NCBI GenBank assembly: GCA_963663195.1
Contig: OY760136.1
Location: 4,030,300-4,094,299, forward strand
DNA: 64,000 nt
Reading direction: 5' to 3'
Source of the DNA: Vicinamibacterales bacterium
GTDB taxonomy: Bacteria; Acidobacteriota; Vicinamibacteria; Vicinamibacterales; UBA8438
In this document: piece after piece, positions 2,106 through 47,304 of the stretch
Layout: each line of letters begins with the position of its first letter
Numbering within the stretch: the stretch's first letter is position 1
The notes under the pieces: generated by a model
The model's database searches: none
What the model saw: the letters and a program-made list of their open reading frames with translations, nothing else
Told to the model about the DNA's origin: nothing
Made by a program: the position numbers and the translations under genes

Positions 2106-2107
2106 TA

Positions 2108-7927: not shown

Positions 7928-10120
7928 ATGAATCATCGAGCGCTTCGACTGCTGGGGACGGTTGCGGCCGTTATCGTCGCCGTCTCGCCCGTCCCGTCGC
8001 GCGCCGAGGCCCAACCGCGGGCGGCGGCGGAAGCGACGACACCGCGGACGCCCTGGGGCGATCCGGATCTGCAGGGGATCTGGAACAACGGCACCATCAC
8101 GCCGCTGGAGCGCCCGGCGGATCGGGCCGACCAGGCATTCCTGGACGCGGAGGAATTGGCCGCGGTCGAGCGGCAGGCCCGCGATCGCGTGGACCGGGAA
8201 AACGCGCCGAGCGCGCAAACCGGGCTGCTGCCGGTGGGCGGCAACGTCGGTGCATACAACAGCTACTGGACGGAGCAGAACACGTCGGTCGTCGGCACCA
8301 TGCGCACGTCGCTGATCACCGATCCCGCGGACGGCCGGCTGCCTGCCCTGACCCCGGAGGCCCTCGCCCGGATCACGTCACCGGAGTGGCGGCGGCTGGC
8401 CGACGTGCAGCAGGGGCGCGTCCCCGCCGACGGACCGGAGGAAATGGGACTGAGCGAGCGCTGCCTCTGGTACCGCGGAATCCCGTCGATCCCGACCGGA
8501 TACAACAACAACTACCACTTCCTGCAGATTCCCGGCGCCGTCGTGATTCTGCAGGAGCACATCCACGATCTGCGTCTCATCTTTCTGGACGAACGGCCGC
8601 ATCTCCCGGCGCGCATCCGTCAGTTCGCAGGCAGTTCGCGCGGGCACTGGGAGGGCGACACGCTCGTCGTCGAAACCACCAACCTGCGGGAACCGTTCAT
8701 CCGCCGCTGGGTCCGTCCGGAGCACTCCCTGTCACGAGGCAGACTCAGCGAGGCCGCGCGCGTGACCGAACGCTTCACGCGTATCGGCCCCGACACGCTC
8801 GACTACCAGTTCACCATCGACGACCCGGAGACGTGGACGCGGCCGTGGTCGGGCGCCCTGCCCTATACACGCACGGACGGACCGATGTTCGAGTTCGCGT
8901 GTCACGAAGGGAACTACGGGCTGCTGAACATCCTGGCCGGCTCGCGCGCGGAGGAGCGGGCCGAAAGGAGGCGGGAATCCGGATCCCTCACGGCCGGGTC
9001 GGCGGTCGCGCAGGCCGGGCAGCTCCCCGACGACGTTCACCCCGTAACGCGCAACCGCCTGCCGCCGATCGACCGCACGGAACTCGATGCCGAGCGGCGC
9101 GCGGCGTACGACGCGGCGGCGGCGAGCCCGTCCGGAGCGCCCACCGGCGCCGCGGCCCTGCGCCTGCACGGCTCGGGCACCCTCCTGCGGTGGGAGGCTC
9201 CGCTGGGACGACGCCTGATTGAGCTGACCATCCTGACCGCGGCGCGCGAGCTCGACCAACCGTTCGAATGGGCGCTGCACGAGATCGAGGCGATCGCCGT
9301 CGGGCTCGAGGACGAAATCATCGACATCGTTCGGCACCGTAAGCCGATTGCCGCGCTGCCTCCGCGCGAAGCGATCATCGTCGAGGTCGGCAGGGAGTTG
9401 TTCGGCACGCGCTCGCTGGCCGCCGACACCTACGCGCGGGCGCTGCGGCTGCTGGGCAAGACCAATCTCGTCGACGTCATCGACACGCTGGCCCGCTACG
9501 CCATGGTCGGGGCCGAGCTCACCGGGTTCAATCAGCGGATGCCCGCCGGCTGGCGGCAGTCTCTGCCGCTGCCGTTCACCCATCCGGACGACATCCATCC
9601 CGACTCGCGCAGCCGGCTGCCGCTAAGAAGCGCCGAGACCACGAGCACGGCGTCGGTGCTGTACGGGCGGTTGCTGTCGCCCTCCGGACTCGGTCCCAAC
9701 GCCATCCGGACCTACGGCGCGGGGCAGGAAACACTGGAAGGACGGGTGGGACGGCGGATCATGCAGCTGGCGATTCTGGTGACGGCAAGAGCGCACGACT
9801 CGCAGTACGAATGGACCCTCAACGAGTCGCCGTCCCGCGAGGCCGGCCTGGATGCGGAGCTGATCGACATCGTCCGTAACGGCCTGGCGCTGGACGGAGT
9901 CGACGAGAAGGACGCCGCCCTGATTGCGTTCGGCCGCGAGATGTTCGGCGACCACAATGTCAGCGCCGCGACCTACGCGCGCGCGGAGCGCGCGTTCGGC
10001 GTGCAGGATCTGGTGGACATCGTGCGCCTGATGGGCGAGCACGCGGCCGAAGCGATTGTGCTGCAGGGCTTCGACCAGCAATTGCCCGAGGGCGTCGAGC
10101 CGCTGCTTCCGCTGCGGTAG
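7928..10120 (+). CDS. Family paralogue P1: exported family domain fused to two tandem carboxymuconolactone decarboxylase (CMD/AhpD-like) domains
   Basis: ATG 7928 follows GAGAGG, inside the artefactual ORF 5135..10120. The protein has a signal peptide (MNHRALRLLGTVAAVIVAVSPVPSRAEA), then TPWGDPDLQGIWNN, TPLERP, RTSLITDPADGRLP, GHWEGDTLVVETTNL and FEFACHEGNYG. Two repeats of the CMD-type pattern follow (..RLIELTILTAARELDQPFEWALHE.. and ..RIMQLAILVTARAHDSQYEWTLNE..). Confidence 0.85.
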   Translation: MNHRALRLLGTVAAVIVAVSPVPSRAEAQPRAAAEATTPRTPWGDPDLQGIWNNGTITPLERPADRADQAFLDAEELAAVERQARDRVDRENAPSAQTGLLPVGGNVGAYNSYWTEQNTSVVGTMRTSLITDPADGRLPALTPEALARITSPEWRRLADVQQGRVPADGPEEMGLSERCLWYRGIPSIPTGYNNNYHFLQIPGAVVILQEHIHDLRLIFLDERPHLPARIRQFAGSSRGHWEGDTLVVETTNLREPFIRRWVRPEHSLSRGRLSEAARVTERFTRIGPDTLDYQFTIDDPETWTRPWSGALPYTRTDGPMFEFACHEGNYGLLNILAGSRAEERAERRRESGSLTAGSAVAQAGQLPDDVHPVTRNRLPPIDRTELDAERRAAYDAAAASPSGAPTGAAALRLHGSGTLLRWEAPLGRRLIELTILTAARELDQPFEWALHEIEAIAVGLEDEIIDIVRHRKPIAALPPREAIIVEVGRELFGTRSLAADTYARALRLLGKTNLVDVIDTLARYAMVGAELTGFNQRMPAGWRQSLPLPFTHPDDIHPDSRSRLPLRSAETTSTASVLYGRLLSPSGLGPNAIRTYGAGQETLEGRVGRRIMQLAILVTARAHDSQYEWTLNESPSREAGLDAELIDIVRNGLALDGVDEKDAALIAFGREMFGDHNVSAATYARAERAFGVQDLVDIVRLMGEHAAEAIVLQGFDQQLPEGVEPLLPLR

Positions 10121-12247: not shown

Positions 12248-13513
12248 ATGGCTCGCCACCTGGCCCGCATTTCTCACCAGCCTTCTGCTGCGGCCGCCGA
12301 TCCGCGCGCTGTGGCGGGCCGTACTCCCTCACGCCGCTTCGACGTAGTTACGACTACGCCTGCAGCGGCATCTGCTAGATGGGGCTGCGCCCCAAACCCC
12401 CGGCGGCTGCTTGCGGGGTCCCCTTCGCCCCGCGCCGCTGCCGCCGGGCCGCGCCGTGCGCGGCTGTCGTTCGATCCGTCCCGGCGCCTCGACGCCCTCG
12501 CGACGAACGCTGGTGAGAAATGCGGGCTGGCTCTGCTCGGCGCGTTGTTGATGCTTCCGGTGGGGTTGCACGCGCAATCCGGCGCGGCGGGGCAGCGCAC
12601 CCCGTGGGGCGACCCCGATCTGCAGGCGGTCTGGACCAGCTCCACGCTCACGCCGCTCGAACGGCCGGCCGGGATGGCCGGCAAGGCGGCGCTCAGCGAG
12701 GAGGAAGCCGCGGCGTCCACGGCGCTCGAGTTGCGGCGCATCGACGGCGACCAGCGCGCGGGAACGGGCCGCGGAGACCGCCAGACCGACACGCCCGACG
12801 GGCGCACCGACGTCGGCCGCGCCTACAACGAATTCTGGCGCGAGCGGGGCCGCATGCTCCGGCAGACCTCGCTGATCGTTGATCCGCCGGACGGGCGCAT
12901 CCCGTACAAGCCGGGCGCGCGCCCCACGGAGTCGCCCTATCACGGCGGCGTGGGCGAGTTCCCGGCCGGCCCGGAAACCCGCGGCCTCGCCGAGCGCTGC
13001 ATCGCCTGGGGCAGCGCCGGACCGCCGATGCAGCCGACGACCTACAACAGCAACTTCCAGCTGCTCCAGACGCCGGACCACGTGGCGATCGTCAACGAGA
13101 TGATCCACGACGTGCGCATCGTGCCGCTGGACGGGCGGCCGCACGTCCGTGCCGGCATTCGCCAGCTGCTGGGCGACTCCCGAGGACGCTGGGAAGGCGA
13201 TACGCTGGTCGTCACGACAGCGAACTTCACGGACAAGACGCGCTTCGCGGGGTCCGGCGCGGGACTCGACCTGGTTGAGCGCTTCACCCGCGTCGACGAC
13301 GACACGCTGCTGTACGAGTACACCGTGCGGGACGATTCCGCTTGGGCGCAGCCCTGGACCGCCTCATGGCCGCTCAGCACGCTGCAGTCGGCGATCGGCT
13401 CGGAACCCGGCAGCGCAGGCGCGCACCTGTTCGAATATGCCTGCCATGAGGGCAACTACGGAATGACCAACCTGCTGGCGGGTGCGCGCGCCCTCGAACC
13501 GGCGCGAGACTGA
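12248..13513 (+). CDS. Family paralogue P2, with a MITE-like element inserted in frame in the signal-peptide coding region
   Basis: AGGAGG lies 3 nt upstream of ATG 12248. Codons 6-94 are repeat-derived. The rest reads [79 protein letters not shown]. It is unclear whether the product is still exported. Confidence 0.7.
   Translation: MARHLARISHQPSAAAADPRAVAGRTPSRRFDVVTTTPAAASARWGCAPNPRRLLAGSPSPRAAAAGPRRARLSFDPSRRLDALATNAGEKCGLALLGALLMLPVGLHAQSGAAGQRTPWGDPDLQAVWTSSTLTPLERPAGMAGKAALSEEEAAASTALELRRIDGDQRAGTGRGDRQTDTPDGRTDVGRAYNEFWRERGRMLRQTSLIVDPPDGRIPYKPGARPTESPYHGGVGEFPAGPETRGLAERCIAWGSAGPPMQPTTYNSNFQLLQTPDHVAIVNEMIHDVRIVPLDGRPHVRAGIRQLLGDSRGRWEGDTLVVTTANFTDKTRFAGSGAGLDLVERFTRVDDDTLLYEYTVRDDSAWAQPWTASWPLSTLQSAIGSEPGSAGAHLFEYACHEGNYGMTNLLAGARALEPARD
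12264..12526. mobile_element. MITE-like repeat, copy A (full composite: long arm + structured central module + short arm)
   Basis: An 18-bp perfect terminal inverted repeat is present (CCCGCATTTCTCACCAGC at 12264-12281, GCTGGTGAGAAATGCGGG at 12509-12526). It is flanked by a direct CTGG (12260-12263 and 12527-12530). The arms match copies B and C in inverted orientation. Confidence 0.8.
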
Positions 13514-13536: not shown

Positions 13537-15225
13537 TCAGTCGCGCAGGGCGAAGGTCGTGAGGACGTGGCCGGAGATGACGGCGACGTACTGCTTGCCG
13601 TCCACCTCGTAGGTCATCGGGCCGTTCACGATGTGGCTGCCCAGGCTGGCCTTCCACAGCAGGTCCCCGCTGCGGGCGTCGAGCGCCTGGAAATAGCCTG
13701 ATCGGGCGCCGGTGAACAGCAGGTCCGAGGCGGTCGCCAGGATGCCGCTGCGGATGACGTCCGTCATCTCGAACTTCCACTTCTGCTCGCCGGTCAGCGC
13801 GTCCAGCGCCAGCACGGCGCCCCTGCCGGCGGCCTCGGTCCAGTCGTTGATGGGACCGCGGGACAGGCCCGGCGGGATCGGCGCATCGGGCACCGGTTGG
13901 TACGTTCGCGGAAAGTCCATGTTGCGCCCCACGAACGCGCGGCCCGGGACGTACACCTGCGGCGCGCCGTCGAAGACCGTCGCGTAATCCTCCCAGGTGG
14001 CGACGTAGAACAGCTCAGTCCGCGGGCTGAAGGCCGGCGAATTCCAGTTGGTCGCACCGGCTATCCCCGGATAGGTCGGCGCACCGGGAGGCTGCGGCGT
14101 CTCGACCGGACGCCCGCTGTCGTCCAGGCCCTCCGCCCAGTTCAGCGATGTGAACGGCACGCCGCTCAGGAAGCGGCCCGTCGCCCGGTCCAGCACGTAG
14201 TAGAACCCGTTGCGGTTCGCCCACAGCATCACCTTGAACAGGTTGCCGCCGCGCTCGATGTCCGCCAGTACCGGGATCTGCACCGCGTCGTAGTCGTACA
14301 GGTCGTCCGGTGTGAACTGGAAGTGCCAACGGATCTCGCCGGTGTCCGCGTCGAGCGCCACGACCGAGCAACTGTAGAGGTTGTCGCCCGGCCGCTGCGC
14401 CCGGTTGTAGTCCGGACCGGGGTTGCCGATGCCCCAGTACGTCAGGTTCAGCTGCGGGTCGTACGAACCGGTCAACCAGGCGGCCGCGCCGCCGTGCTTC
14501 CACGCCTCCGGGTCGCAGTACGTCTCGGGATTCGGCGGGCACGCCTCCCACGTCTCGTGGCCGGGCTCACCGGGACCCGGAATCGTATGGAAGCGCCAGG
14601 CCTCTTCGCCCGTCTCGGCGTCCAGCGCCGCGATGAATCCGCGGATGCCCTGGTCACCGCCGGTCGAGCCGACCAGCACCTTGTCCTTGATGGCCAGCGG
14701 CGCCAGCGTGAAGGCGTACGCCAGGTTCTTGTCTGCCATCTCCACGTCCCACAACTCGGCGCCGGTCGCCGCGTCGAGCGCAACGACGTGCGCGTCGAGC
14801 GTGGCCATGAACACGCGCTCGCCGAGCACCGCCACGCCGCGGTTGTTCGCCCCGCAGCAGGCCCGGTGGTCCGAGGGCGTCGGATAGTTGTAGACCCAGT
14901 AGACGCGCCCGGTCCTGGCGTCGAGCGCGACGATGTCGTTGGGCCGCTGTGTCAGGTACATCACGCCGTCGACGACGATTGGTGAAGCCTGCCACGTTCC
15001 GGCCACCGACGTCTGGTACACCCACTCCAGCGCGAGGTCGCCGACGTTGGCCGGCGTGATCTGCTCGAGCGCGCTGTAGCGCTGGCTGAAGTAGCCGCCC
15101 GAATAGGTCAGCCAGTTCTGCGGCTCGTCGGCCGCTCGGACCAGGCGGTCGGAGGATACCTGCGCGGACAGGCCGGCAGAGAGCAGCGCACCCATCGCCA
15201 CGGCCCACAGCGCGCGCCGGAGCAT
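13537..15225 (-). CDS. PQQ-dependent dehydrogenase (methanol/ethanol-family 8-bladed propeller), paralogue 1
   Basis: The start MLRRALWAV is at 15225, inside ORF 13537..15735. After a signal peptide come NWLTYSGGYFSQRYSALEQITPANV, the vicinal ACCGANNRGVA, YDYDAVQIPVL and the W-repeat structure. It is about 80% identical by eye to the 30449..32143 product. Confidence 0.88.
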   Translation of the reverse strand: MLRRALWAVAMGALLSAGLSAQVSSDRLVRAADEPQNWLTYSGGYFSQRYSALEQITPANVGDLALEWVYQTSVAGTWQASPIVVDGVMYLTQRPNDIVALDARTGRVYWVYNYPTPSDHRACCGANNRGVAVLGERVFMATLDAHVVALDAATGAELWDVEMADKNLAYAFTLAPLAIKDKVLVGSTGGDQGIRGFIAALDAETGEEAWRFHTIPGPGEPGHETWEACPPNPETYCDPEAWKHGGAAAWLTGSYDPQLNLTYWGIGNPGPDYNRAQRPGDNLYSCSVVALDADTGEIRWHFQFTPDDLYDYDAVQIPVLADIERGGNLFKVMLWANRNGFYYVLDRATGRFLSGVPFTSLNWAEGLDDSGRPVETPQPPGAPTYPGIAGATNWNSPAFSPRTELFYVATWEDYATVFDGAPQVYVPGRAFVGRNMDFPRTYQPVPDAPIPPGLSRGPINDWTEAAGRGAVLALDALTGEQKWKFEMTDVIRSGILATASDLLFTGARSGYFQALDARSGDLLWKASLGSHIVNGPMTYEVDGKQYVAVISGHVLTTFALRD

Positions 15226-15227
15226 TG

Positions 15228-16301
15228 CTAACGAACCTTCGCCGCGGCGGCCTCTGCCGCCATCCGCTCGAGGTTGCGATTGATCTCGAGGATGTGCCGG
15301 ATGTCGTGGTTGCCCTCGTGGCAGCCGTATTCGAACATCGGCCCCTCGGTCTTGATCATCGGCACCTCGGCGCTCCAGGAGCTGGTCCAGGTGGTCGGAT
15401 CGGAGATCGTGAACTCGTAGTGGATCTGGGTCTCGCCGACGCGGCTGAACCGTTCCACCACGTGCCGGAACCCGGAGGACCCGCGGTAGCTGCGCTTGTC
15501 GACGTCGACGAAGTTCTTCGATTCGACGACCAGGGTGTCGCCGTCCCAATAACCGCGCGAGGCGCCGCCGTACTGCGGCACACCCCCCGGGAGGTGCGGG
15601 CGTCCGTCGAGCGGAATGATTCGCGGCAGGGTAGTACCGAGCTCCGTGAACACGACGACGTAGTCCGAAGTCTGGAAAATCTGATGGATGTCGTTGTAAG
15701 ACGGCGGCAGGATCGGCGGCCCTTCGTGCCGCCACGCGATGCAGCGTTCGGGCAACGGGCGCGTCTCGTGGCTGTCGAATACGCTGCGCATGGCCTGTTC
15801 GTGGGCAATGCGGGCCGCGCCGGCCGGCGTCAGCGGCGGAATCCGGCCATTGGGCGGATCCGTGATCAGCGACGTGCGCCGGGTCGACAACCCCTTGGGC
15901 ACCTCAGTGCGGAGCCAGACCGTATTGTCGTAGTGCACGTACGACGGGTCGCGGTTGACCTGGTACAGGCCCCGCTCCCGCTCCTCCGCGTCCTCCAGGA
16001 TCGCGGCGTCGCGCGCCAGCGGATCGACCCCGTCGGCTGTGAGCTGCGCCTGCAGCTCCGCGAACTCCTCTTCCGAATAGAACGCCTTGTCTCCCAGGTA
16101 GGCGGGGCGTTCGATCGGCGTGAACGTCTGGGTGGTCCAGTACCCCTGGAGATCCGGATGACCGTCCGGCGTGCGCGGCAACGTCCAGTCCGCGGCCTCG
16201 TCCGCGGCGTGCTCGCCCACAGCCTGCGCGGCAGCCGACAAGGGCGCCGACAACCCGACCGCAACGATCGCCGCCAGTGCGGCGAGAGTAGAGCGGCTCA
16301 T
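15228..16301 (-). CDS. Family paralogue P3 (TPDGHPDLQGYW subtype), co-transcribed with a PQQ dehydrogenase
   Basis: GAGGAGGAG lies upstream of ATG 16301. After a signal peptide come PRTPDGHPDLQGYWTT, FTPIERP, RTSLITDPPNGRIPP, ERC, IIPLDGRPHLP, GYWDGDTLVVESKNF and FEYGCHEGNH. The stop is 2 nt from the start of the PQQ-DH gene. Confidence 0.9.
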   Translation of the reverse strand: MSRSTLAALAAIVAVGLSAPLSAAAQAVGEHAADEAADWTLPRTPDGHPDLQGYWTTQTFTPIERPAYLGDKAFYSEEEFAELQAQLTADGVDPLARDAAILEDAEERERGLYQVNRDPSYVHYDNTVWLRTEVPKGLSTRRTSLITDPPNGRIPPLTPAGAARIAHEQAMRSVFDSHETRPLPERCIAWRHEGPPILPPSYNDIHQIFQTSDYVVVFTELGTTLPRIIPLDGRPHLPGGVPQYGGASRGYWDGDTLVVESKNFVDVDKRSYRGSSGFRHVVERFSRVGETQIHYEFTISDPTTWTSSWSAEVPMIKTEGPMFEYGCHEGNHDIRHILEINRNLERMAAEAAAAKVR

Positions 16302-16423
16302 CTGACTCTCCTCCTCAGTGATGGTCCACCGCTGCGCGAACGCCCCAATGATTACGCACGACGCCCCCCCGCGTCAAAACCTGCGCGGGCGCAGGTCTCG
16401 TCTGGCCGAAGCGTACAGGAGGG

Positions 16424-16463
16424 TCAAAAAAAGGGCGTGCCCGGCAGAGCCGGACACGCCCTT
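16424..16463 (-). terminator. Rho-independent terminator downstream of the 16517..19558 receptor gene
   Basis: Read on the minus strand: AAGGGCGTGtCCGGCtctGCCGGgCACGCCCTT followed by TTTTT. This is a roughly 15-bp GC-rich stem with one mismatch and a 3-nt loop, followed by a U-run, about 55 nt after the stop. Confidence 0.8.
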
Positions 16464-16516: not shown

Positions 16517-19500
16517 TTAGAAGTCGAGCTGAGCCGCGAACCTCAATAGCCGAGGCGGCATGAACCCGAGGGGGCTCAAGTAGCTGGCCTGGGCGTACGA
16601 CTCGCTGAAGACGGCGTTGTTGTTGAACACGTTATAGATGTCGATCATCGCCCGTATGCGGGCTCGGCCGGCCTGGAAGATCTTCGTGAACCGCAGGTCG
16701 AACTGGTTGAAGCGCTCCCCGTAAACCGTTCCTGGCTCCAGGGCGTTGATGGTCACCGCGTCTCCGGAGGCCGGCGGCCTGCCGAGCGCCGCCGCGATCT
16801 CCGCCGACGTGACGGTGACGAGAGCCTGCCGTTCCGGGCCGGGAGCCGACTGGAGCGTGGCGGCGACCTGGATGTCGTACGGCAGGGTGTACGACCCGAG
16901 CAACTTGATCTGCGTCAGCCAGGCGGTTGATGAATCGCAGAACTCCTGCGCGAGCGTGTCGGTGCCGCGCACCAGATCTCCCCGGCGGGAGAGATGCTCC
17001 GGCGCAGCGGCATACGGGCCGCAGTAGTCGTATGACGTCGTCCCGGTGGACAGCCCGCCCTGGAGGGTCAGCTCATCCAGCCGTGCGTTGAGCGTGACGT
17101 CGACGCCGTTGAACACCTGCTCTTCGCCGCCGAAATGATTCGCCGACGTGAACAGGACATCGGGCTGGCGGCCGAACGCCTCTGGCCTGATCTCGGGGAA
17201 GGTGACCGTCCCGACGCCGGGAATGCCCCGGCCGCTCAGATCCACGGTGGCCAGGTCATAATCGCTACCTGACAGCGCCCGGTCGTCCTGTAGCGCGAAG
17301 TTGACGAAGTTGCGGCGGAACCAGGTCACGTCGAGCGCCATGCCGGCGGTCAGCTCCTGCTGTATCCCGGCGGTCACTTCCCAGTTGGAGAAGCGCTGGC
17401 CATATCCGCTCGCCCAGTCGGGGTCGAGGAATTGGAACGGCGCGGTGCCGCCCCAGGCCGCGTTGGCGATTGGGAAGATCAGCTCTCCGTTCGGGGCGGG
17501 GTTGGCCGGGTCGCCCTGCACGAAGCCGTCGCCGGCGATACACTCGACCGGCCCGATACAGGACGGGAAGACGGGTGGAATGCCGGCGAAGCGATGGCCG
17601 GGCGCCCCGTCGAGCCACACCCTGTCGTTTGCGCGGGCCGGGACAGCCGAGAACGGGTTCAGCAGGACCGCCCACTCGGAGTTCGACCGCGTGCCGTAGC
17701 GGTTGGCCGACGCCTTGAGCGCCGTCCGCCCGTCGCCAAACACGTCGTACGCCACCCCCAGCCGTGGCTGCAGGTCGTTCCAGGCCACGATATCCGAGAC
17801 GCCGGAGATCGACTGACCTTGCGGCTCCCAGGTCGACGCGGCGCGAGTCTGGTCCGGATACGAGTTTGTGAGCCGGTCGAGGCGGAGGCCGGCGTTGACG
17901 GTAACCTGGCCGAGCGTTATCTGGTCCTGCGCGTAGATTCCGTAGGCGATGCCCTCGTTGGTCGAATCGTGTGGCAGCCAGAAGCCTGCCTGCAGCGGGA
18001 GCCCAAGAATGGCAAGCGCGTTGGTGAAGTTCTGGTTGCTGAAGGTTTGGAACCTCTCGGAGGTCCGCGTGCCGCTAAACCCCACCTTCAGGTTGTGGGT
18101 GCCGGTCACGTAGGTCATGCTGCCGCGGAAGGAGTGGGTCGCCCGCCAGCTGTCGTATCCACTCCCCTGCGATATGAAGTGGTTGTTGCGGTGAATCGTC
18201 AGCGTGCTGGCCTCCAGAAGCCCGAGCACGTCGTTGGCGGCATGCTCGTTGGGACCGGCGTCGAACTGGGCCGGGGAGCTCGAGAAACCCGCCTCGAACA
18301 GCAGGCGGTCGGTCGCCGGCCGGACCCAGTTGAACTGGGTCGTATGGAGTCTGTAGTCCCCACTGACGGAGCCTTCCGGCGCGATGAACAAGCCGAAGAG
18401 CGGCCCCGCCAGGGCATTCGGCTTTTCCCAGTCGGCGTAGTTGTAGAAGAACTTGAACTTGTCCTTCCGGGTCGCCTGGATCGTCAGGTTGAGAGTCGTG
18501 TCCTTGGAACCATTGATACTGGCCACAGGCTGGGTCGGGTCGGGCGTGTAAACGCTTGCTGCCGGGTCCACGGCCGCGAACACATTGGGAGTGAAGCTGT
18601 CGGCTACCTGCTGCGTGAACTGCGCGTAGAACCAGACGCGGTCCCTGACGATCGGGCCGCCGACCGCCGGATTGTACAACCATGCCCTGTCGAGCTCCGC
18701 GAAGTTCGAGGCGCCGGGCACCTCGTTCGTCCCCTGCAGCCCGGGGCCGGTGCCGCTCGCGAAAAAGGCTCCGCTGAACTGGTTGGCTCCCTCTCGAGGG
18801 ACCAGGTTCACGCCGACGCCGCCCAACGCCGCCTCGGCGCCGTGCCCGGAGACCTCGACTGACATCTCCTCCATTGCGCCGTCCGAGACCGTGCCGAACA
18901 TCTGCCCGGCGCCCCCGGAGAAGGCGTTGCTGACGTCCATGCCGTTGATGTTCGTTTGCCCGTCCTTCGGGCGGCTGCCGTGGATGTCGAGGGCCGCTAC
19001 GGTCTGGACCGTGGTGCCGCCCGCGTCCTGGTTGAGGCTCGTGCCGAACGCCGAAGAGGAGCTCATCCCGGGCACCAGCAGCGCGTAGCTCTGATGCGAC
19101 TTGCCTGTCGGGATCTCGTCGATGACCTCCCGATCGATGAGCGCCCGCTGCAAGGTGTTCTGGATGTCCACAACCGGGCTCGCGCCGGATACCGTCACCG
19201 TCTCCGCGATGTCGCCGACCGAGAGCTGCACGTCGATGCTCGCCGTGAAGCCGGTGGTGAGCTCGATGCCCTCGCGGACCAGCGTGGTGAACCCGGGCAG
19301 CGTGTAGGTGACCGAGTAGGTGCCCGGCTCGAGGGCCACGATGAGGTACTGCCCGCTGCCGTCGGTTACGGCCGTGCGCACCTGCTCGATGATGTCCGGG
19401 CTGCGCGCCTCCACGGTCACGCCGGGCAGCACGCCGCCGGTCGTGTCGCTAACTGTGCCGCCGATCTGCTGGGCGCTGGCCACGCCGGCGCCCAAAAGAA

Positions 19501-21451: not shown

Positions 21452-22513
21452 TTACCGCGATCCGTTGCCGGCGGCCGCCTCGGCGGCCTGGCGCTCGAGG
21501 TTGCGGGCGATCTCGAGGATGTTCACGATGCCGTGATTGCCCTCGTGGCAGCCGTACTCGAACATTGGCCCCTCGGTCTTGATCATCGGCACCTCGGCGC
21601 TCCACGGGCTGGTCCAGGTGGTCGGATCGTTGACGGTGAACTCGTAGCGGATTTCATTCTCCGAGATGCGGGTGAAACGCTCCACGACATGCCGGAACTG
21701 GTTCGAACCGCGGAGATTCCGGCGCGCGACGAAGTTCTGCGATTCGACCACGAGCGTGTCGCCCTCCCAGCGCGCGCGCGAGTCGCCGTGCAACTGGCGA
21801 ATCGTGTCCGGCAGCGGCGGGCGTCCGTCAAGCGGGATCATGCGCGGGAATCCGGTGCTTATTTCGGTGAAGACGACGAAGTGGTCAGGTGTCTGGAAGA
21901 TCTGATGGATGTCGTTGTACGCCGGCGGCAGCATCGGCGGCCCTTCGTGCGCCCAGATAATGCAGCGCTCCATGAACGAGCGCGTCTCGTGGCTGTCAAA
22001 TATGCTGCGCATCGCGCGCTCACGCGCCACGCGCGCGGCGCCCGCGGGCGTCATGGCCGGCAACCGGCCGTTCCGCGGATAGGTGACGAGCGACGTGCGC
22101 CGGGTCGAGAGACCCTTGGGCGTTGGCGTGCGCAGCCAGATCTCGTTGTCGTAGTGGACGTAGGACGCGTCGCGGTTGTCCTGGTAGAGCGCCTGTTCAC
22201 GCTCGGTGTCGTCTGCTATCTCGATCGCGTCGCGGCGCAGCGGATCGACCCCCTCGGCTGTGAGCTGCTCCTGCAGGACCGCCCATTCCTCGTCCGAGAA
22301 GAATTCCTTGTCGGCCAGACGCTCGGGCCGTTCGAGCGGCGTGAACGTCTGCGTGGTCCAGTACCCCTGCATGTCCGGATGGCCGTCCGGCGTGCGCGGA
22401 ACCGTCCAGTTTGCGTCGGCCTCCGCCGCCGGCCCCTGACCGGCTGCATCCGCCGGCAGCAGCGTCCCTACCACGACAACCGTTGCCAACGCGGCAAGAT
22501 GACTGTGGCTCAT
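21452..22513 (-). CDS. Family paralogue P4 (TPDGHPDMQGYW subtype)
   Basis: About 65% identical by eye to P3: signal peptide, [67 protein letters not shown] and FEYGCHEGNH. Confidence 0.9.
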   Translation of the reverse strand: MSHSHLAALATVVVVGTLLPADAAGQGPAAEADANWTVPRTPDGHPDMQGYWTTQTFTPLERPERLADKEFFSDEEWAVLQEQLTAEGVDPLRRDAIEIADDTEREQALYQDNRDASYVHYDNEIWLRTPTPKGLSTRRTSLVTYPRNGRLPAMTPAGAARVARERAMRSIFDSHETRSFMERCIIWAHEGPPMLPPAYNDIHQIFQTPDHFVVFTEISTGFPRMIPLDGRPPLPDTIRQLHGDSRARWEGDTLVVESQNFVARRNLRGSNQFRHVVERFTRISENEIRYEFTVNDPTTWTSPWSAEVPMIKTEGPMFEYGCHEGNHGIVNILEIARNLERQAAEAAAGNGSR

Positions 22514-24393: not shown

Positions 24394-26346
24394 TTATCCC
24401 TCCGGCAGCGCAAACGCGACCAGCGACGCATCCGGTCCGGCGCCCGTGGCGATGACAACAAATTGCCGGCCCGCGCGGCTGACGTACGTCATCGGGTTGC
24501 CGATCGTCCGGAACTCGGTGGGCGTGCGACTGATCTCACGGCCCGTGGCGGCCTCGAACGCGTACAGGTACGGCTCGCCGCCGCCGATGAAGAGGAGGCC
24601 GCTGGCGGTCGACATCGGTCCGTTCGTGCCCGGCGTGCCGAGGCGCTCGGGGAGGTCGACGCCCTGCAGCAGCGGATGGTTGCGCATGATCCTGCTGCCT
24701 TCGCCGAACGGCACCTTCCAGGCGATCTCGCCGCTGTTGAGGTCCATCGCCACGAGGTTGGCGTACGGCGGCTTGATCAGCGGAATCGCGCCAAGGCGGC
24801 TGCGCTGCGCCGGCCTCTCGCCGGCCAGGCCCCGGAAGATTCCGCCGGAGGCGCCCCAGGCACAATTGTTCGTGTAGGGAACGTCGACGTCCGGGAGTTC
24901 CTCGGGTGTCGCACATACCTGATTCGGCGAAACCCCTTCGGACGAGCGGACGATCAGCAGCCCCAACTCCTCGACGAACGTGGCGCCGCCCCAGTTCGCG
25001 CCGCCCGACTCCCGCGGCCGCATCAACGTACCCCGCAGGCTCGGCGGCGTGAACAGCGGGCCGAGGCGGAACTGCTGCATCTCCTCCACCGCCATGGCGT
25101 GAATCTCCGGCGTCAGGTCGTTGGCGTCGTCGAGCGACGTGCCCTGTCCGGCGAACGGCGGCGGCTTCGTCGGGAACGGCTGCGTCGGATACAGCACCTC
25201 GCCCGGCACGTCGGTGTCGGTGTCGACCGGACGCTCCTCGATAGGCCAGACCGGCTCGCCGGTCACCCGGTCGAAAACGTACGTGAATCCCTGTTTCGAC
25301 ACTTCCGCCACGGCGTCAATTTCGCGCCCGTCGACGTTGATGGTGATCAGGTTCGGCGGCGACGTGAAGTCGTAGTCCCAGACGCCGTGGTGCACCCCCT
25401 GGAAATGCCACTGCCGCTCGCCGGTCCGCGCGTCGAGGCAGACCAGCGTTTCCGCGAACAGGTTCGCGCCCGGCCGCCGGCCGCCCCAGTAGTCGCTGCT
25501 CGGCGTGCTGGTGGGCACATATAACAGGCCGCGCTCCTCGTCGAGCGACATCAGCCCCCAGACGTTGGCGTGTCCCGTGAAGCGCCACGACTGGTTCTCC
25601 CACGTGTCGGCGCCGAACGCGTCGTTGGACTGCGGCACGACGTAGAAGTGCCAGCGGCGCTCGCCCGTGTGCACATCGAACGCCTGCACGGAACCCGGCG
25701 TGTCGAAGCGGCGCTGGATGCGGTCCGGCACCCGGCTGCCTACGATCACCAGGTCCTCGAAGACGACCGGCGGCGACGTCTGGTCGAACATGTCGTCGGT
25801 CACGTCGTTCGTGAAATTCTCGATGAGCGAGACTCGCCCCCCCGTTCCGAAGTCCGGAATGGGCGCGCCGGTCTGCGCGTCGAGCGCGTGCAGGCTGACG
25901 CGGCTGTTGATGAAGACGCGCATGTCGTCGCCCTCGCCGTGCACGGCGACGCCGCGGTGCTTGTAGCCCCCCGGGCTGGCGCCCGCCGGCCCGGTTTCAT
26001 AAGCGCGCGGGTCGAACGCCCACAACTCGCGGCCGGTTTCGGCATCCAGCGCCACGACCCGCGTATACATGGTCGAGAGGTACAGCACGTTGTCGATCAT
26101 CAGCGGCGTCGTCTCGAAGCCGCCCGGGCGGGTGCCGTACTCCGGCAACGGCATCTCGTTCGGTTCCCACGTCCAGACCACCTCGAGCTGATCCACGTTT
26201 TCTGGCGTGACCTGGGTCGCCGCCGAAAACTTGGTGTGGTGCTGGTCGCCCCCGACGTAGGGCCACTCGAGCATCTGATCCTGGCCTTGTACGGCGGTGA
26301 GTGCGGCGGCGGTGAAGACGATCGCGAGCGCGGAGACTCTTGTCAT
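24394..26346 (-). CDS. PQQ-dependent dehydrogenase (glucose/quinate-type propeller), exported
   Basis: GGGAGG lies upstream of ATG 26346. After a signal peptide come EWPYVGGDQHHTKFS, LYLSTMYTRVVALDAETGRELW, WDYDFTSPPNL and a C-terminal ..PMTYVSRAGRQFVVIATG.. Confidence 0.85.
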   Translation of the reverse strand: MTRVSALAIVFTAAALTAVQGQDQMLEWPYVGGDQHHTKFSAATQVTPENVDQLEVVWTWEPNEMPLPEYGTRPGGFETTPLMIDNVLYLSTMYTRVVALDAETGRELWAFDPRAYETGPAGASPGGYKHRGVAVHGEGDDMRVFINSRVSLHALDAQTGAPIPDFGTGGRVSLIENFTNDVTDDMFDQTSPPVVFEDLVIVGSRVPDRIQRRFDTPGSVQAFDVHTGERRWHFYVVPQSNDAFGADTWENQSWRFTGHANVWGLMSLDEERGLLYVPTSTPSSDYWGGRRPGANLFAETLVCLDARTGERQWHFQGVHHGVWDYDFTSPPNLITINVDGREIDAVAEVSKQGFTYVFDRVTGEPVWPIEERPVDTDTDVPGEVLYPTQPFPTKPPPFAGQGTSLDDANDLTPEIHAMAVEEMQQFRLGPLFTPPSLRGTLMRPRESGGANWGGATFVEELGLLIVRSSEGVSPNQVCATPEELPDVDVPYTNNCAWGASGGIFRGLAGERPAQRSRLGAIPLIKPPYANLVAMDLNSGEIAWKVPFGEGSRIMRNHPLLQGVDLPERLGTPGTNGPMSTASGLLFIGGGEPYLYAFEAATGREISRTPTEFRTIGNPMTYVSRAGRQFVVIATGAGPDASLVAFALPEG

Positions 26347-26615: not shown

Positions 26616-28031
26616 ATGGTGATGACGGTCAAGACATTCCGCGGTAATTTCCTATCCCTGGCAGGCTGCGCAGCGTTCGTCGGGCTCATTCTGGCCACGG
26701 CGCCCGCCGCCGCAGCCGAGCGGGAAGCCGATGTGACGTTCACCAGGGACGTCGCGCCGATAATGCAGCGCTCGTGCGAGAAGTGCCACCGCCCGCGCGG
26801 CGGCGCGCCGATGGCCCTGATCAGCTACCAGGACGTGCGCCCGTGGGCGCGTTCGATCAAGAACCGCACACAGTCGCGCGAGATGCCGCCCTGGTTCATC
26901 GACAAGAACATCGGCATCCAGCACTACAAGGACGACCCCTCGTTGAGCGACGAGGAGATCGCGACCATCGCGGCCTGGGTGGACAATGGCGCCCCGCGGG
27001 GCAATCCGGAAGACCTTCCGCCGCCGACCGTGTGGCCGGCCGACGGCTGGACCTACGGCACGCCCGATCTGATCGTACCGTCACCCGAGGGGACGGTCGA
27101 GGCGGACGCGGCCGACTGGTTCGGTGAGTGGGGCTACACCCCGAGCGGCCTGACCGAAGACCGTTACGTGCAGGCGATCGAGGTGAAGGAAGTCCGCCTC
27201 CACGAGGAACAGGCGGAAGTGAACGACGACGGCCGGGCCGCCCTGGGACTGTTTGTCGTGCATCACGCGGTGCTCACCGCCGAGTCGCCGCAGGATACCG
27301 GCGGACCGGCGAATTGCGGCAGGCGGACGTTCTGCGGGGAACGGGACAACGAGTTCACCCTGGTGCACGAGCTGGGGCAGAACGCAACGGTCTATCCCGA
27401 CGACGTCGGCGTCCTGCTGCCGGCCGGGTCGGTGATCACGTTCAACTCGATGCACCTGCACTCGATCGGCCGCGAGGTTCGCGCGCGGCTCGACGTCGGC
27501 TTCACGCTCCATCCGAAGGACTACGAGCCGAAATACAAGCTGGGCCTCACCAGCCTGGGCCGCGCGACGCAATACGACTACGAGTTCGACATCCCCTCGG
27601 ACGACGACAACGTGATGCGCGACGGCTTCCACCGCCTGGATCAGCCGACAAAGATGTTGACGTTCGAGCCGCACCTGCACTCCAGCGGCAAGCGGATGTG
27701 CTTCGAGGCGCTCTATCCGAACAATGCGCGCGAGATGCTGAGCTGCGCCGACTACGACCACAACTGGGCCAAGGTGTACGTCTTCGAGGATGACGTCGCG
27801 CCGCTGCTGCCGGCCGGGACGGTCGTCCGCGTGATGTCCTGGTACAACAACTCCGAAACGAACAAGAACGTGGTCGACCCGCGCAACTGGAAGGGCTGGG
27901 GCAATCGCTCCATCGACGACATGATGTCCGGCATCACCCGCATGGTGCACATGACGCAGGAGCAGTTCGACGCGGAGGTCGCCGCGCGCGGCGGTTCGTT
28001 CGCGTTCGCCAACTCGCAGGATCAGCAGTAG
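26616..28031 (+). CDS. Exported heme-c (CXXCH) protein with copper type-II monooxygenase-like His motifs
   Basis: A signal peptide is followed by FTRDVAPIMQRSCEKCHRP..REMPPW, a c-type heme site with a candidate Met ligand. Downstream motifs are VVHHAVL, NSMHLHSIG and FEPHLHSSGKRMCFE, i.e. HH / HxH / HxH..M patterns like the CuH/CuM sites of PHM/DBH-type enzymes. The domain call is from motif memory only. Confidence 0.7.
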   Translation: MVMTVKTFRGNFLSLAGCAAFVGLILATAPAAAAEREADVTFTRDVAPIMQRSCEKCHRPRGGAPMALISYQDVRPWARSIKNRTQSREMPPWFIDKNIGIQHYKDDPSLSDEEIATIAAWVDNGAPRGNPEDLPPPTVWPADGWTYGTPDLIVPSPEGTVEADAADWFGEWGYTPSGLTEDRYVQAIEVKEVRLHEEQAEVNDDGRAALGLFVVHHAVLTAESPQDTGGPANCGRRTFCGERDNEFTLVHELGQNATVYPDDVGVLLPAGSVITFNSMHLHSIGREVRARLDVGFTLHPKDYEPKYKLGLTSLGRATQYDYEFDIPSDDDNVMRDGFHRLDQPTKMLTFEPHLHSSGKRMCFEALYPNNAREMLSCADYDHNWAKVYVFEDDVAPLLPAGTVVRVMSWYNNSETNKNVVDPRNWKGWGNRSIDDMMSGITRMVHMTQEQFDAEVAARGGSFAFANSQDQQ

Positions 28032-28059
28032 CGGCCACATCCCGCCGCCTGACGCAAGC

Positions 28060-28578
28060 ATGCCTGTCCGGTTCCCGGCGCCGCTCCTGGCCGCGCTGGG
28101 TTTCGCTCTGCTTGTCCCTTTCGAGACCGGCGTGCAGGCGCAGGCGCCTACCGACTCCAACATCGCCGCCGGCATGCGCATCTACCGCCAGAAGGCCGAC
28201 TGCCAGTCGTGCCACGGTTGGGCCGGCGACGGCCGCAAGATGGACAATCAGATGCCGGACGGCGCGAACCTGCGCACGAGCAGCCTCGACCGCGAACAGT
28301 TGATCTTCGTGATCAAGTGCGGCCTGCCCGGCCGCGAAATGCCGGCGTTCGACCGCCTCGCCTACAGCGACGAGCGCTGCCTGGGACGCACGCGCGCGGA
28401 CCTGCGGCGCATGGGGCTGACGCTCCCGGATCCCGCCGCCACGCTGCAGGCGCGCGAGATCGAGCGGCTCGCGGATTTCCTGTTCGCCAAGGTGATCGGA
28501 CAGGGTCCGATGGACCGGGCCGCGTGCATCGACTACTGGGGCTCCGACGTCGCGGTGTGCTCGGACCTGCCGCGCTGA
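28060..28578 (+). CDS. Monoheme c-type cytochrome, exported
   Basis: Signal peptide, a single CQSCH heme motif and a downstream GREMPAF candidate Met ligand; 172 aa. Its stop is 3 nt from the stop of the convergent PQQ alcohol dehydrogenase gene. Confidence 0.85.
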   Translation: MPVRFPAPLLAALGFALLVPFETGVQAQAPTDSNIAAGMRIYRQKADCQSCHGWAGDGRKMDNQMPDGANLRTSSLDREQLIFVIKCGLPGREMPAFDRLAYSDERCLGRTRADLRRMGLTLPDPAATLQAREIERLADFLFAKVIGQGPMDRAACIDYWGSDVAVCSDLPR

Positions 28579-30342: not shown

Positions 30343-30448
30343 CACGTATTCCTCCCCCGGGATGCGGCTCGCCACGGGCTGGTTACATCTTACCGAGTTT
30401 GCGGCGCAGGGCCGCGGGAAACTCGGGGGTGTTATCCTGAAACCCGCC

Positions 30449-46318: not shown

Positions 46319-47137
46319 CTAGCTGCCCGGCTTCGCCAGGTGACCCCACATCGTCTCTTCCACGAACTCCACGCAGTTGAACTCCAGAATCTCGACGTCC
46401 GGCTCAAGGCGGCGGTAGAGCGGCATGCTGATCGTCCAGGGCCCCGTGAACACGTTCTCGTCCTCGAGCGTCGCCTCGTACTGCAGCGCGTCGGGGCTGA
46501 TGGGCGTGATCCGCTCGACGACCCTGAGTGCGGCACTGTGGTAGTTGCCCGCCCGGTCGAGCCAGGTCTGGTCGGTGAACGTATTCGACTCGATGACCAG
46601 CGTGTCGCCTTCCCAACGGCCGAGCGAGTGCCCCATGTACGTATCGATCGGCGGCGGCTCGACCGCCGTCATGTGGATCGAGCGCGTCGCCCCGATGTAC
46701 TCGGATGCGATCAGGATGAATTCGGGGGTCTGCACGATCTGGAACGGGAACGGCATGTACATGACGCGCGGGACACCCGGCAGGTAGCACTTGATCTCGG
46801 GATCCGCCGTGAGCCACTGCTCCTGGTTCTCCCGCCGCTTCTCGAGCGCCGACTCCTGGTACGGAATGTCGCCGCCCTGGACCACGGACTTGCCCGCCGG
46901 CACCGCACCGACGGCTCCGAGCGGGATCGCCGCGCCGGCCCGAGCGGAATGATCCTCCAGGTCCCAGTGCGCCGTGTTGTTGGCCTGCCAGATGCCGTTC
47001 AGGTCCGGTGCGCCGTCGAGGGTGCGCGGCAACTGCGCCTGATCGCCGCCGGCATCGTCTCCGCCCGCGCACCCGAGCGTGCCGGAAAGAGCGACGGCGG
47101 CCAGCAGGACTACCGGGGTTCCGATCAGCTTTCGCAT
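46319..47137 (-). CDS. Family paralogue P6: divergent, shorter lipoprotein subtype lacking CHEGNY
   Basis: ATG 47137 gives [23 protein letters not shown], which contains a lipobox. The motifs [31 protein letters not shown] and [29 protein letters not shown] are present, but the C-terminus is ..[12 protein letters not shown].. instead of ACHEGNY. Confidence 0.8.
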
Positions 47138-47304
47138 GTGGCGTCTCCAGGCTCGTCCCACGGTTGCGTGCGCCGCGAAACGCGGCGGCGCGCAAGTGGT
47201 TTGCACCGCATTCTAATCCAGGATGCGCGCGCGGCGGCCATGTTTGCCAGCGCCGCGGACTATCAGTGAAGATACCGGGCGAGCGGCGGACCGCGGGAGG
47301 CGAC

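What the first reader, a model, noticed from the sequence alone, without database searches (positions are those of the whole stretch)
13537..16301. Family paralogue P3 and a PQQ dehydrogenase form a tight two-gene operon
P3 (16301->15228) ends 2 nt before the ATG of the PQQ-dependent dehydrogenase (15225->13537). A strong intrinsic terminator at 16424-16463 isolates the pair from the upstream TonB-dependent receptor gene. P3 has its own GAGGAGGAG ribosome-binding site. Translational and transcriptional coupling of an unknown exported protein to a quinoprotein suggests a functional partnership. P3 could be an electron acceptor, a substrate-delivery or maturation factor, or a second step on the dehydrogenase product.
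Basis: partly seen in the sequence, partly recalled or inferred. Interest (0 to 1): 0.65.

Follow-up and report, generated by a model that had tools for sequence, protein, structure and literature searches.

The report
Exported barrel protein plus quinoprotein operon
A gene for an exported protein from a very large, unnamed family sits 2 bases upstream of a PQQ alcohol dehydrogenase gene in a real, lineage-conserved operon. The pairing is a recent arrangement found in one group of Acidobacteria, so it is not a general partnership, and what the exported protein does is still unknown.

Summary
P3 (16301..15228) ends 2 nt before the ATG of a 562-aa PQQ dehydrogenase (15225..13537). It has a GAGGAGGAG ribosome site and a promoter-like site. 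A strong terminator (-30.8 kcal/mol) separates it from the upstream TonB-type receptor gene.

The dehydrogenase is PedH/XoxF-like and carries the lanthanide-type DYD motif. P3 is a Sec-exported protein with a predicted 8-stranded calycin-like barrel, an invariant Cys pair and a conserved EYxCHEGN motif. It has no CxxCH and no match in Pfam, NCBIfam or the PDB. Its family is very large (over 25,000 clusters at 50% identity) and has about 10 copies in this window.

All ten clear orthologues of the dehydrogenase in Vicinamibacterales genomes have a family member directly upstream (gaps 9-165 nt). In seven of them that copy belongs to a different paralogue clade. The ancestral layout looks like PQQ2-FAM-FAM-FAM-PQQ1 (FAM = a family member). 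Wider homologues (58-81% identity) usually follow a dihaem cytochrome c instead, and only 10 of 80 have a family member nearby.

Co-expression is therefore supported. A dedicated partnership is not. P3 most likely binds or converts a small periplasmic molecule in the same oxidative pathway (confidence about 0.4).

The parts
16424..16463 (-). Intrinsic terminator ending the upstream TonB-type receptor transcript
   Evidence: 15-bp stem with 11 G-C pairs, 3-nt loop, then TTTTTT. RNA fold -30.8 kcal/mol, z = -6.4, 0 of 200 shuffles as stable.
16348..16377 (-). Sigma-70-like promoter candidate for the P3/PQQ1 unit
   Evidence: TTGACG, 18 nt, AATCAT; 9 of 12 matches. It is the only site found in 13000-17000, where 0.2 are expected by chance. 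This is a consensus match only.
16308..16316 (-). Shine-Dalgarno sequence GAGGAGGAG of P3
   Evidence: Read directly from the sequence; it ends 6 nt before the ATG at 16301.
15228..16301 (-). P3: a 357-aa Sec-exported member of a large unannotated family ('FAM'), with a predicted calycin-like barrel
   Evidence: ORF. No Pfam or NCBIfam match. AlphaFold2 model with pLDDT 85 and pTM 0.83: 8 strands at 205-317 plus a C-terminal helix. The best PDB fold matches are FABP/SAHS barrels only. R186, C187 and E283 are invariant; C327, H328, E329 and N331 are at least 90% conserved.
13537..15225 (-). PQQ1: a 562-aa periplasmic PQQ alcohol dehydrogenase (PedH/XoxF-like), lanthanide-type by motif
   Evidence: PF01011 at 1.5e-90; TIGR03075 at 540 bits, above the 480 cut-off. 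The closest solved structure is PedH 6zcv, E = 2.8e-104. It has the vicinal Cys pair C122-C123 and D311-Y-D313, but GGD191 in place of GGE.
12545..13513 (+). FAM2: a convergent family paralogue ending 23 nt from the PQQ1 stop. This neighbour is conserved.
   Evidence: 40% identical to P3. The same convergent gene (77-87% identity) is present in L001-L004 and L008-L010.
16517..19495 (-). TonB-type outer-membrane receptor gene upstream, separated from P3 by the terminator. The ORF could start as far up as 19651.
   Evidence: PF25183 and CarboxypepD_reg matches. This gene is absent from the same position in L001-L010, so it is a lineage-specific insertion.
21452..22513 (-). P4: the closest paralogue of P3 (69% identity). 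It is part of the ancestral PQQ2-FAM-FAM-FAM-PQQ1 cluster.
24394..26346 (-). PQQ2: a second, distant PQQ propeller dehydrogenase. In relatives it lies directly upstream of the family array.
   Evidence: PF01011 at 4e-184. PQQ2 is followed directly by a family member in L002-L012.
30227..32143 (+). PQQ4: a 79%-identical paralogue of PQQ1 with no family member beside it. Its true start is probably downstream of 30227.

Best explanation
P3 and PQQ1 form a real, co-transcribed pair, but only in one subclade of Vicinamibacterales (Acidobacteriota). PQQ1 is a periplasmic PedH/XoxF-type PQQ alcohol dehydrogenase, probably lanthanide-type. It arose by a recent duplication: PQQ4, its 79%-identical paralogue, lies 15 kb away. 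Related enzymes elsewhere follow a dihaem cytochrome c gene. PQQ1 instead sits at the end of an array of family genes, in an ancestral layout of PQQ2-FAM-FAM-FAM-PQQ1. In the window's lineage the array copy next to PQQ1 is missing, which brought P3 to within 2 nt of PQQ1.

P3 is one of many copies of a very large, unnamed family of Sec-exported proteins of about 340 aa. These have a calycin-like (FABP/lipocalin-like) barrel, a probable structural disulfide (C187-C327), and a pocket lined with invariant Arg, Glu, Tyr, His and Asn residues.

Most likely (inferred, not shown), P3 binds or chemically converts a small periplasmic metabolite with a polar head group. That metabolite would be a substrate or product of the neighbouring periplasmic oxidoreductases, so P3 would serve the same oxidative pathway as PQQ1. 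It would not be a dedicated subunit, cofactor chaperone or electron acceptor of PQQ1.

Shown here: gene structure, signals, family size, predicted fold, and the conservation pattern of the adjacency. Inferred: co-transcription in this organism, the disulfide, ligand binding or catalysis, and the pathway link.
For: Operon signals and spacing. All 10 clear PQQ1 orthologues (81-93% identity, L001-L010) have a co-directional family member directly upstream, with gaps of 9-165 nt. A 241-nt metatranscriptome contig from a relative joins the 3' end of a family gene to the 5' end of a PQQ1 gene.

The tree shows three paralogue clades in the array. The window, L001 and L003 have no third-clade copy, and L002 shows the same layout. 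PQQ1 and PQQ4 are 79% identical.

Fold: pLDDT 85, with the barrel matching FABP/SAHS structures at TM about 0.5. About 20 polar residues are at least 90% conserved across members that are only 35-45% identical, which points to a shared chemistry or ligand moiety. The short paralogue at 46319..47161 keeps both Cys residues but loses His and Asn, which fits a structural disulfide.

Family members sit beside, or are fused to, other oxidative enzymes: a cupin (P0086 fusion, and a separate downstream gene in 10 loci), a 2xCMD protein (fused in the window, separate in L003), cytochrome b561, sGDH, and several PQQ clades. In L005 and L007-L010 the array is flanked by an ILVD/EDD dehydratase gene on one side and a CitMHS transporter gene on the other, which suggests one acid-producing oxidative pathway.
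Against: There is no experimental or structural evidence for any ligand, and the barrel match to solved calycins is weak (best E = 1.4e-3). The many invariant polar residues would fit cofactor binding equally well. Close P3 relatives also sit in operons with cytoplasmic enzymes (aldehyde dehydrogenase, DUF72, TauD, a methyltransferase), so no single pathway theme emerges. Within the window, family/PQQ adjacencies (3 observed) do not exceed what random gene order would give (about 2 expected, my own arithmetic). The RNA evidence comes from assembled contigs of related organisms and could include DNA.
Confidence: 0.4

Rival explanations
1. The adjacency is historical only. The family is so abundant and so often tandemly arrayed in these genomes that a duplicated dehydrogenase gene simply landed beside an array. 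P3 and PQQ1 are co-transcribed but do unrelated jobs.
For: There are about 10 copies in 64 kb and six in the 11-kb locus L084. Only 10 of 80 wider PQQ1 homologues have a family member within 3.5 kb, which is about the background rate for such a dense family. PQQ4 (79% identical) has none beside it. The paralogue next to PQQ1 differs between lineages. L088, a PQQ1-like gene (80% identity), has no family member within 3.5 kb.
Against: The co-directional adjacency with short gaps is kept in 10 of 10 clear orthologues across 81-93% protein identity. Family members also abut other PQQ clades in independent layouts: L014, L047, L056, and L030/L037/L038/L064. Two gene fusions with neighbouring genes (cupin, CMD) show that family members do work with their neighbours.
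Confidence: 0.3
2. P3 is a new kind of periplasmic electron acceptor or redox mediator for PQQ1, occupying the position held by the dihaem cytochrome c in related operons. It would carry a non-covalent cofactor (haem b, a quinone or a metal) held by the conserved His, Cys, Glu and Arg residues.
For: In 39 of 80 homologous loci the gene directly upstream of the dehydrogenase is a CxxCH protein, about 260 aa in most loci and a confirmed dihaem cytochrome c in the representatives examined. That cytochrome has no homologue in the window or in L001-L078. Other family members sit in conserved operons with a membrane cytochrome b561, which resembles the E. coli yceJ/yceI pair of cytochrome b561 and a periplasmic lipocalin-like protein (the E. 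coli pair is recalled from general knowledge, not checked here). The EYxCHEGN motif is conserved.
Against: P3 has no CxxCH, and position 324 is Glu in 98% of members and never Cys. No Pfam cytochrome, cupredoxin or flavodoxin model matches. No fold match to any redox protein was found. Two cytochrome c genes lie 11-15 kb away in the window (26616..28578) and could serve PQQ1. L093 and L122 have both the cytochrome and family members.
Confidence: 0.12
3. P3 is a cofactor chaperone that delivers scavenged PQQ or a lanthanide ion to apo-PQQ1.
For: P3 is periplasmic, the pocket is rich in invariant Arg (which suits PQQ carboxylates) and Glu, Asp and Asn (which suit hard cations), and a TonB-type receptor gene lies immediately upstream. 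Acidobacteria found to encode the PQQ importer PqqU lack PQQ synthesis genes, and within that phylum PqqU producers were found only in the class Vicinamibacteria (PMC12124388).
Against: A chaperone would not need about 10 paralogues in 64 kb, or more than 25,000 sequence clusters in total. Most relatives are not next to PQQ genes. The receptor is separated from P3 by a strong terminator and is absent from this position in L001-L010. Receptors are near family genes in only 3 of 78 loci.
Confidence: 0.08

Closest known systems
Type I quinoprotein alcohol dehydrogenase operons (PedH/ExaA with cytochrome c550; XoxF with XoxG and XoxJ)
   Same: PQQ1 scores above the TIGR03075 cut-off. Its closest solved structure is PedH (6zcv). 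It has the vicinal Cys pair and the DYD lanthanide-type motif, and it is periplasmic. Like xoxF/mxaF, it is co-encoded with a periplasmic protein of unknown role.
   Different: The cytochrome c gene that precedes most homologues (39 of 80 loci) is missing here, and a family member holds that position. The metal-binding Glu of the GGE motif is Asp (GGD191). P3 is not homologous to XoxJ/MxaJ (solute-binding-protein fold) or to any cytochrome.
Calycin superfamily (FABP, lipocalin, SAHS, avidin-type barrels)
   Same: The predicted fold is an antiparallel up-and-down barrel (8 strands) followed by a C-terminal helix. The only PDB fold matches are FABP/SAHS structures (TM about 0.5 over about 120 residues). 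Conserved Arg and Tyr residues in the strands recall the carboxylate-binding triad of FABPs.
   Different: There is no sequence similarity (7-15% identity) and no Pfam lipocalin match. hhalign against a Lipocalin_5 domain fused to one family member found nothing. P3 has about 200 extra N-terminal residues with their own invariant motif (PDLQGxW...TPxERP). Foldseek E-values do not go below 1e-3.
YceI (periplasmic lipocalin-like protein) encoded with cytochrome b561 (YceJ) in E. coli
   Same: In at least 10 loci a close P3 relative lies in a conserved cytochrome b561 (PF01292) - 173 aa - FAM - 163 aa gene set. This mirrors the pairing of a periplasmic barrel protein with a membrane b-type cytochrome.
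   Different: No homology to YceI was detected (no PF04264 match). The resemblance is in gene context only and is recalled from general knowledge, so it is a lead and not a test.
MxaJ/XoxJ accessory proteins of methanol dehydrogenases
   Same: They are exported proteins of unresolved function, encoded beside a PQQ dehydrogenase.
   Different: XoxJ has a periplasmic solute-binding fold and is single-copy. P3 has a barrel fold and belongs to a massively expanded family found mostly away from PQQ genes.

Membership tests
PQQ-dependent dehydrogenase, methanol/ethanol family (TIGR03075) - for PQQ1 | Profile score above the curated cut-off; eight-bladed PQQ propeller domain | tested here: met
   TIGR03075 at 540 bits against a cut-off of 480; PF01011 at 1.5e-90. 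It also scores 499 bits on TIGR04528 (acido-empty-quinoprotein), below that model's cut-off of 650, so it is not filed there.
PQQ-dependent dehydrogenase, methanol/ethanol family - for PQQ1 | Vicinal Cys-Cys disulfide and catalytic Asp | tested here: met
   C122-C123 (ACCG) and D311 align with the PedH equivalents.
Lanthanide-dependent subclass (XoxF/PedH type) - for PQQ1 | An extra Asp two residues after the catalytic Asp (D-x-D) | tested here: met
   D311-Y-D313 aligns with the WDFDG motif of PedH. PQQ4 has it too. The residue assignment rests on established knowledge of XoxF and PedH.
Lanthanide-dependent subclass - for PQQ1 | Metal-binding Glu in the GGE motif | tested here: not met
   PQQ1 has GGD191 where PedH has GGE. 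This is a conservative change of unknown effect.
Lanthanide-dependent subclass - for PQQ1 | Actual binding of PQQ and a lanthanide; alcohol oxidation | not testable with these tools
   This needs protein biochemistry.
c-type cytochrome electron acceptor (XoxG/ExaB type) - for P3 | CxxCH haem-attachment motif; cytochrome c domain | tested here: not met
   P3 has only two Cys residues (C187, C327) and no CxxCH. No Pfam cytochrome match in P3 or in 77 diverse relatives.
MxaJ/XoxJ accessory protein - for P3 | Periplasmic solute-binding-protein domain (SBP_bac_3) | tested here: not met
   No Pfam or NCBIfam match at E <= 0.1. The predicted fold is a barrel plus helices.
Calycin superfamily (lipocalin/FABP) - for P3 | Antiparallel up-and-down barrel enclosing a ligand pocket | tested here: inconclusive
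   The model shows 8 consecutive strands at 205-317 with pLDDT mostly above 90. Foldseek best E = 1.4e-3 and TM about 0.5 to FABP/SAHS over 120 columns, with no match at E <= 0.001.
Calycin superfamily - for P3 | Sequence-level family signature (any lipocalin or FABP profile) | tested here: not met
   No Pfam match in 77 members even at E <= 5. The PDB profile search found nothing relevant. hhalign against Lipocalin_5 gave probability 0.4%.

The most novel reading that the evidence does not exclude
The family is a previously unrecognised class of periplasmic cofactor-carrying barrel proteins. In this reading it acts as a soluble redox mediator: in this lineage it replaces the dihaem cytochrome c as the acceptor of a lanthanide-type PQQ dehydrogenase, and elsewhere it pairs with membrane cytochrome b561.
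Probability: 0.1. Interest if true: 0.85.

Novelty: new variant of a known kind. Interest (0 to 1): 0.5.

Why it matters
PQQ and lanthanide dehydrogenases are abundant in soil and marine Acidobacteria, but their accessory genes outside the Proteobacteria are barely known. Here the usual cytochrome gene is absent and a member of a very large, unnamed exported family sits in its place. That family has more than 25,000 clusters at 50% identity and no Pfam, NCBIfam or PDB relative. It has about 10 copies in 64 kb, and sponge metatranscriptome contigs pile up very heavily on its conserved motif. If the family has one shared chemistry, working it out would annotate tens of thousands of 'hypothetical' periplasmic proteins. 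It would also clarify how these uncultured bacteria process substrates outside the cytoplasm. The operon in this window gives a concrete, testable pair for a first experiment.

Tried and rejected
- Pfam and NCBIfam on P3, and Pfam on 77 diverse members at E <= 5: no family matched.
- PDB sequence search with P3 and with a 149-sequence profile: only noise.
- A first AlphaFold2 model from a shallow alignment was poor (pLDDT 68) and was replaced.
- Foldseek with the good model gave only weak FABP/SAHS barrel matches.
- hhalign of the family profile against the Lipocalin_5 domain fused to P0231: no relation.
- Cluster look-ups for names returned only 'hypothetical protein'.
- A literature search for the CHEGN motif gave only false hits. 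Papers on acidobacterial XoxF clusters, novel lanthanide-binding PQQ enzymes, and sponge symbionts do not mention a protein of this size or type.
- A general link between the family and TonB-type receptors was rejected: receptors are near family genes in only 3 of 78 loci.
- Rfam on 12000-20000 found no RNA element.
- The dihaem cytochrome c that precedes homologous dehydrogenases was searched for in the window and in 78 loci and was not found.
- Metatranscriptome mapping could not test co-transcription in this organism directly. Only contigs from relatives (90-95% alike) mapped.
- A complex prediction for P3 with PQQ1 could not be run with the tools available.
Full report
**Observation.** On the minus strand, an ATG ORF runs 16301..15228 (P3, 357 aa, stop TAG at 15230-15228). 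Two bases later, the ATG at 15225 opens a 562-aa ORF that ends at 13537. GAGGAGGAG lies at 16316-16308, 6 nt before the P3 start. Upstream there is a 15-bp G+C-rich hairpin at 16463-16431, followed by a T-run. It folds at -30.8 kcal/mol (z = -6.4; none of 200 shuffles folded as well). Between this terminator and P3 is the only promoter-like site in 13000-17000: TTGACG, 18 nt, AATCAT at 16377-16348. Rfam finds no RNA element here. The description is correct at every coordinate.

**The dehydrogenase (PQQ1).** It matches the PQQ propeller domain (PF01011, 1.5e-90). It scores 540 bits on TIGR03075, the methanol/ethanol family, against a cut-off of 480. The closest solved structure is PedH, the lanthanide-dependent ethanol dehydrogenase of Pseudomonas putida (6zcv, E = 2.8e-104). 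In that alignment PQQ1 keeps the vicinal Cys pair (C122-C123) and the D311-Y-D313 motif. From established knowledge of XoxF and PedH, the second Asp marks lanthanide enzymes. The GGE metal ligand is GGD191 instead. PQQ1 has a signal peptide and no haem domain, so it needs a separate electron acceptor.

**P3 and its family ("FAM").**
- P3 has a Sec-type signal peptide ending in AAAQA, and only two Cys residues. It has no CxxCH.
- It has no Pfam or NCBIfam match at E <= 0.1 and no sequence relative in the PDB.
- tblastn finds about 10 paralogues in the 64-kb window, at 35-69% identity.
- A word-indexed search returned at least 6,931 homologues, none of them named. A profile search of 1.84 billion cluster representatives found 25,386 clusters at E <= 1e-3 and 13,730 at E <= 1e-10.
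- Seventy-seven diverse members scanned against Pfam at E <= 5 share no family.
- Across members only 35-45% identical to P3, G152, R186, C187, G246 and E283 are invariant. About 30 more positions are at least 90% conserved. These include the N-terminal PDLQGxW...TPxERP motif and the C-terminal E324-x-x-C327-H328-E329-x-N331 motif.

**Predicted structure of P3.** With a 149-sequence alignment, AlphaFold2 gives pLDDT 85 and pTM 0.83. The model has a mixed N-terminal region of about 200 residues, eight consecutive strands (205-317) and a long C-terminal helix. Foldseek against the PDB returns only FABP/SAHS-type calycin barrels. These cover about 120 columns at target TM about 0.5, with a best E of 1.4e-3 and nothing at E <= 0.001. 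So the barrel is calycin-like, but the protein has no close solved relative. The short paralogue at 46319..47161 keeps both Cys residues and loses His and Asn. I take this as support for a structural C187-C327 disulfide.

**Organism.** The 78 best genomic relatives are all Vicinamibacterales or other Acidobacteria MAGs. Public runs that hold the sequence include sponge metagenomes.

**Is the adjacency conserved, seen from the P3 side?**
- In L001-L010 a PQQ1 orthologue (81-93% identical, and clearly closer to PQQ1 than to its window paralogue PQQ4) is always preceded by a co-directional family gene.
- The stop-to-ATG gaps in these loci are 9, 9, 11, 11, 14, 32, 51, 52, 149 and 165 nt.
- In L004-L010 the layout is (PQQ2)-FAM-FAM-FAM-PQQ1. 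Here the copy beside PQQ1 is only 63-66% identical to P3, and the P3-clade copy is the middle one.
- A neighbour-joining tree separates three clades: a P4 clade, a P3 clade and a third clade. The window, L001 and L003 have no third-clade copy, and L002 shows the same layout.
- So the P3/PQQ1 junction is derived, and the partner next to PQQ1 is interchangeable among paralogues.
- More distant P3/P4-like genes (63-75% identity) sit in other conserved contexts:
  - aldehyde dehydrogenase - FAM - DUF72;
  - cytochrome b561 - 173 aa - FAM - 163 aa;
  - TauD - methyltransferase - FAM, in some loci followed by a cupin;
  - several layouts beside unrelated PQQ clades (L014, L047, L056, L030/L037/L038/L064).

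**Is the adjacency conserved, seen from the PQQ1 side?**
- PQQ1 and PQQ4 (30227..32143) are 79% identical. Homologues at 81% identity or less are therefore co-orthologues, not strict orthologues.
- Among 80 metagenome loci with homologues at 58-81% identity, only 10 contain a family gene within 3.5 kb. Only one of these (L089) has it directly upstream.
- In 39 of the 80 loci the upstream gene is a CxxCH protein, about 260 aa in most. In the representatives examined it is a dihaem cytochrome c that matches the Pfam Cytochrom_C model.
- Of five further genomic loci, four have a divergently transcribed family gene upstream and one has the cytochrome.
- That cytochrome has no homologue in the window or in L001-L078.
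- PQQ4 has no family gene beside it.
- The canonical operon partner is therefore a cytochrome c. The family adjacency is specific to one subclade.

**Functional hints.**
- Gene fusions tie family members to their neighbours. P0086 is FAM + cupin, and the same cupin is a separate downstream gene in 10 loci.
- The window gene 7928..10120 is FAM + 2xCMD, while in L003 the two parts lie in different reading frames.
- P0231 is FAM + Lipocalin_5, but hhalign shows no homology between the two barrels.
- In L005 and L007-L010 the array is flanked by an ILVD/EDD dehydratase gene on one side and a CitMHS transporter gene on the other. L005 additionally shows a TPP enzyme gene.
- The window also encodes an sGDH, a PTE-family hydrolase, an HpcH aldolase and malate synthase near other family copies.
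- This paints a region for periplasmic oxidation of small molecules to acids. It does not identify a reaction for the family.
- TonB-type receptors are near family genes in only 3 of 78 loci.
- Distant barrel-only relatives (28-30% identity) occur on Novosphingobium and Croceibacterium plasmids as 'hypothetical protein', beside DUF6152 genes.

**RNA evidence.** Only assembled metatranscriptome contigs from related organisms (mostly 90-95% alike) map to this region. They cover both genes and drop to about zero over 16378-16491. One 241-nt contig, present in three runs, joins the 5' end of PQQ1 (15087-15172) to the 3' end of the family gene (from 15250). This is consistent with co-transcription in a relative. 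Summed contig depth reaches about 30,000 over the codons for EYGCHEGN (15311-15332), against a few hundred over conserved stretches of PQQ1. Many paralogues appear to be highly expressed in these sponge samples. Contig depth is a poor measure of expression, and DNA carry-over is possible.

**Verdict.** The two-gene unit is real and is stable in its subclade. A dedicated P3/PQQ1 partnership is not supported.
- Best reading (confidence about 0.4): P3 is a periplasmic calycin-like protein that binds or converts a small molecule in the same oxidative pathway as PQQ1.
- Incidental adjacency in a genome crowded with this family: about 0.3.
- A new redox mediator replacing the cytochrome: about 0.12.
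- A PQQ or lanthanide chaperone: about 0.08.

The operon is a new variant of a known kind. The more notable result is the size and obscurity of the family itself.

Noticed in passing
window 7928-10120 (+): One family paralogue is fused in frame to two carboxymuconolactone-decarboxylase (AhpD-like, PF02627) repeats, giving a 730-aa ORF. In L003 the same two parts are adjacent but in different reading frames. This is either a true lineage-specific fusion or an assembly frameshift.
   Followed up: partly
window 13537-15225, 24394-26346, 28582-30573, 30227-32143, 10187-11368: The window holds four eight-bladed PQQ propeller genes and one sGDH-type (PF07995) gene. PQQ1 and PQQ4 are 79% identical and share ACCG, GGD and DYD. 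PQQ2 and PQQ3 lack the Cys pair. Two cytochrome c genes lie between them at 26616-28578.
   Followed up: partly
window 15311-15332 (codons for E324-N331 of P3) and 13414-13527: Sponge metatranscriptome contigs pile up to a summed depth of about 30,000 on the conserved EYxCHEGN-coding stretch, far above the neighbouring dehydrogenase. This suggests that many family paralogues are highly expressed in sponge microbiomes.
   Followed up: partly
window 46319-47161 (-): A short (about 275 aa), divergent family member lies directly upstream of a full-length one (45069-46277). It lacks the N-terminal motif and the His and Asn of CHEGN but keeps both Cys residues. Similar barrel-only relatives occur on Novosphingobium and Croceibacterium plasmids next to DUF6152 genes (L168, L169).
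   Followed up: partly
L084 and L085 (metagenome contigs), 240-8535: Six family genes or fragments lie within 11 kb with no other annotated domain between them, so tandem arrays of the family exist well beyond this window.
   Followed up: no
L036, L042 and about 10 further loci: A conserved four-gene set, cytochrome b561 (PF01292) - 173-aa protein - family member - 163-aa exported protein, recalls the E. coli yceJ/yceI pairing of a b-type cytochrome with a periplasmic barrel protein.
   Followed up: no
window 16517-20684: The TonB-type receptor and alpha/beta-hydrolase genes upstream of P3, and the esterase-like gene at 22589-24325, are absent from the corresponding positions in L002-L010. They look like insertions that split an ancestral PQQ2-FAM-FAM-(FAM)-PQQ1 cluster.
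   Followed up: partly
window 28582-30573 (-) and 30227-32143 (+): The longest ORFs of the divergent PQQ3 and PQQ4 genes overlap by about 350 nt at their 5' ends. Their real starts are probably further in, and the shared intergenic or regulatory region was not mapped.
   Followed up: no
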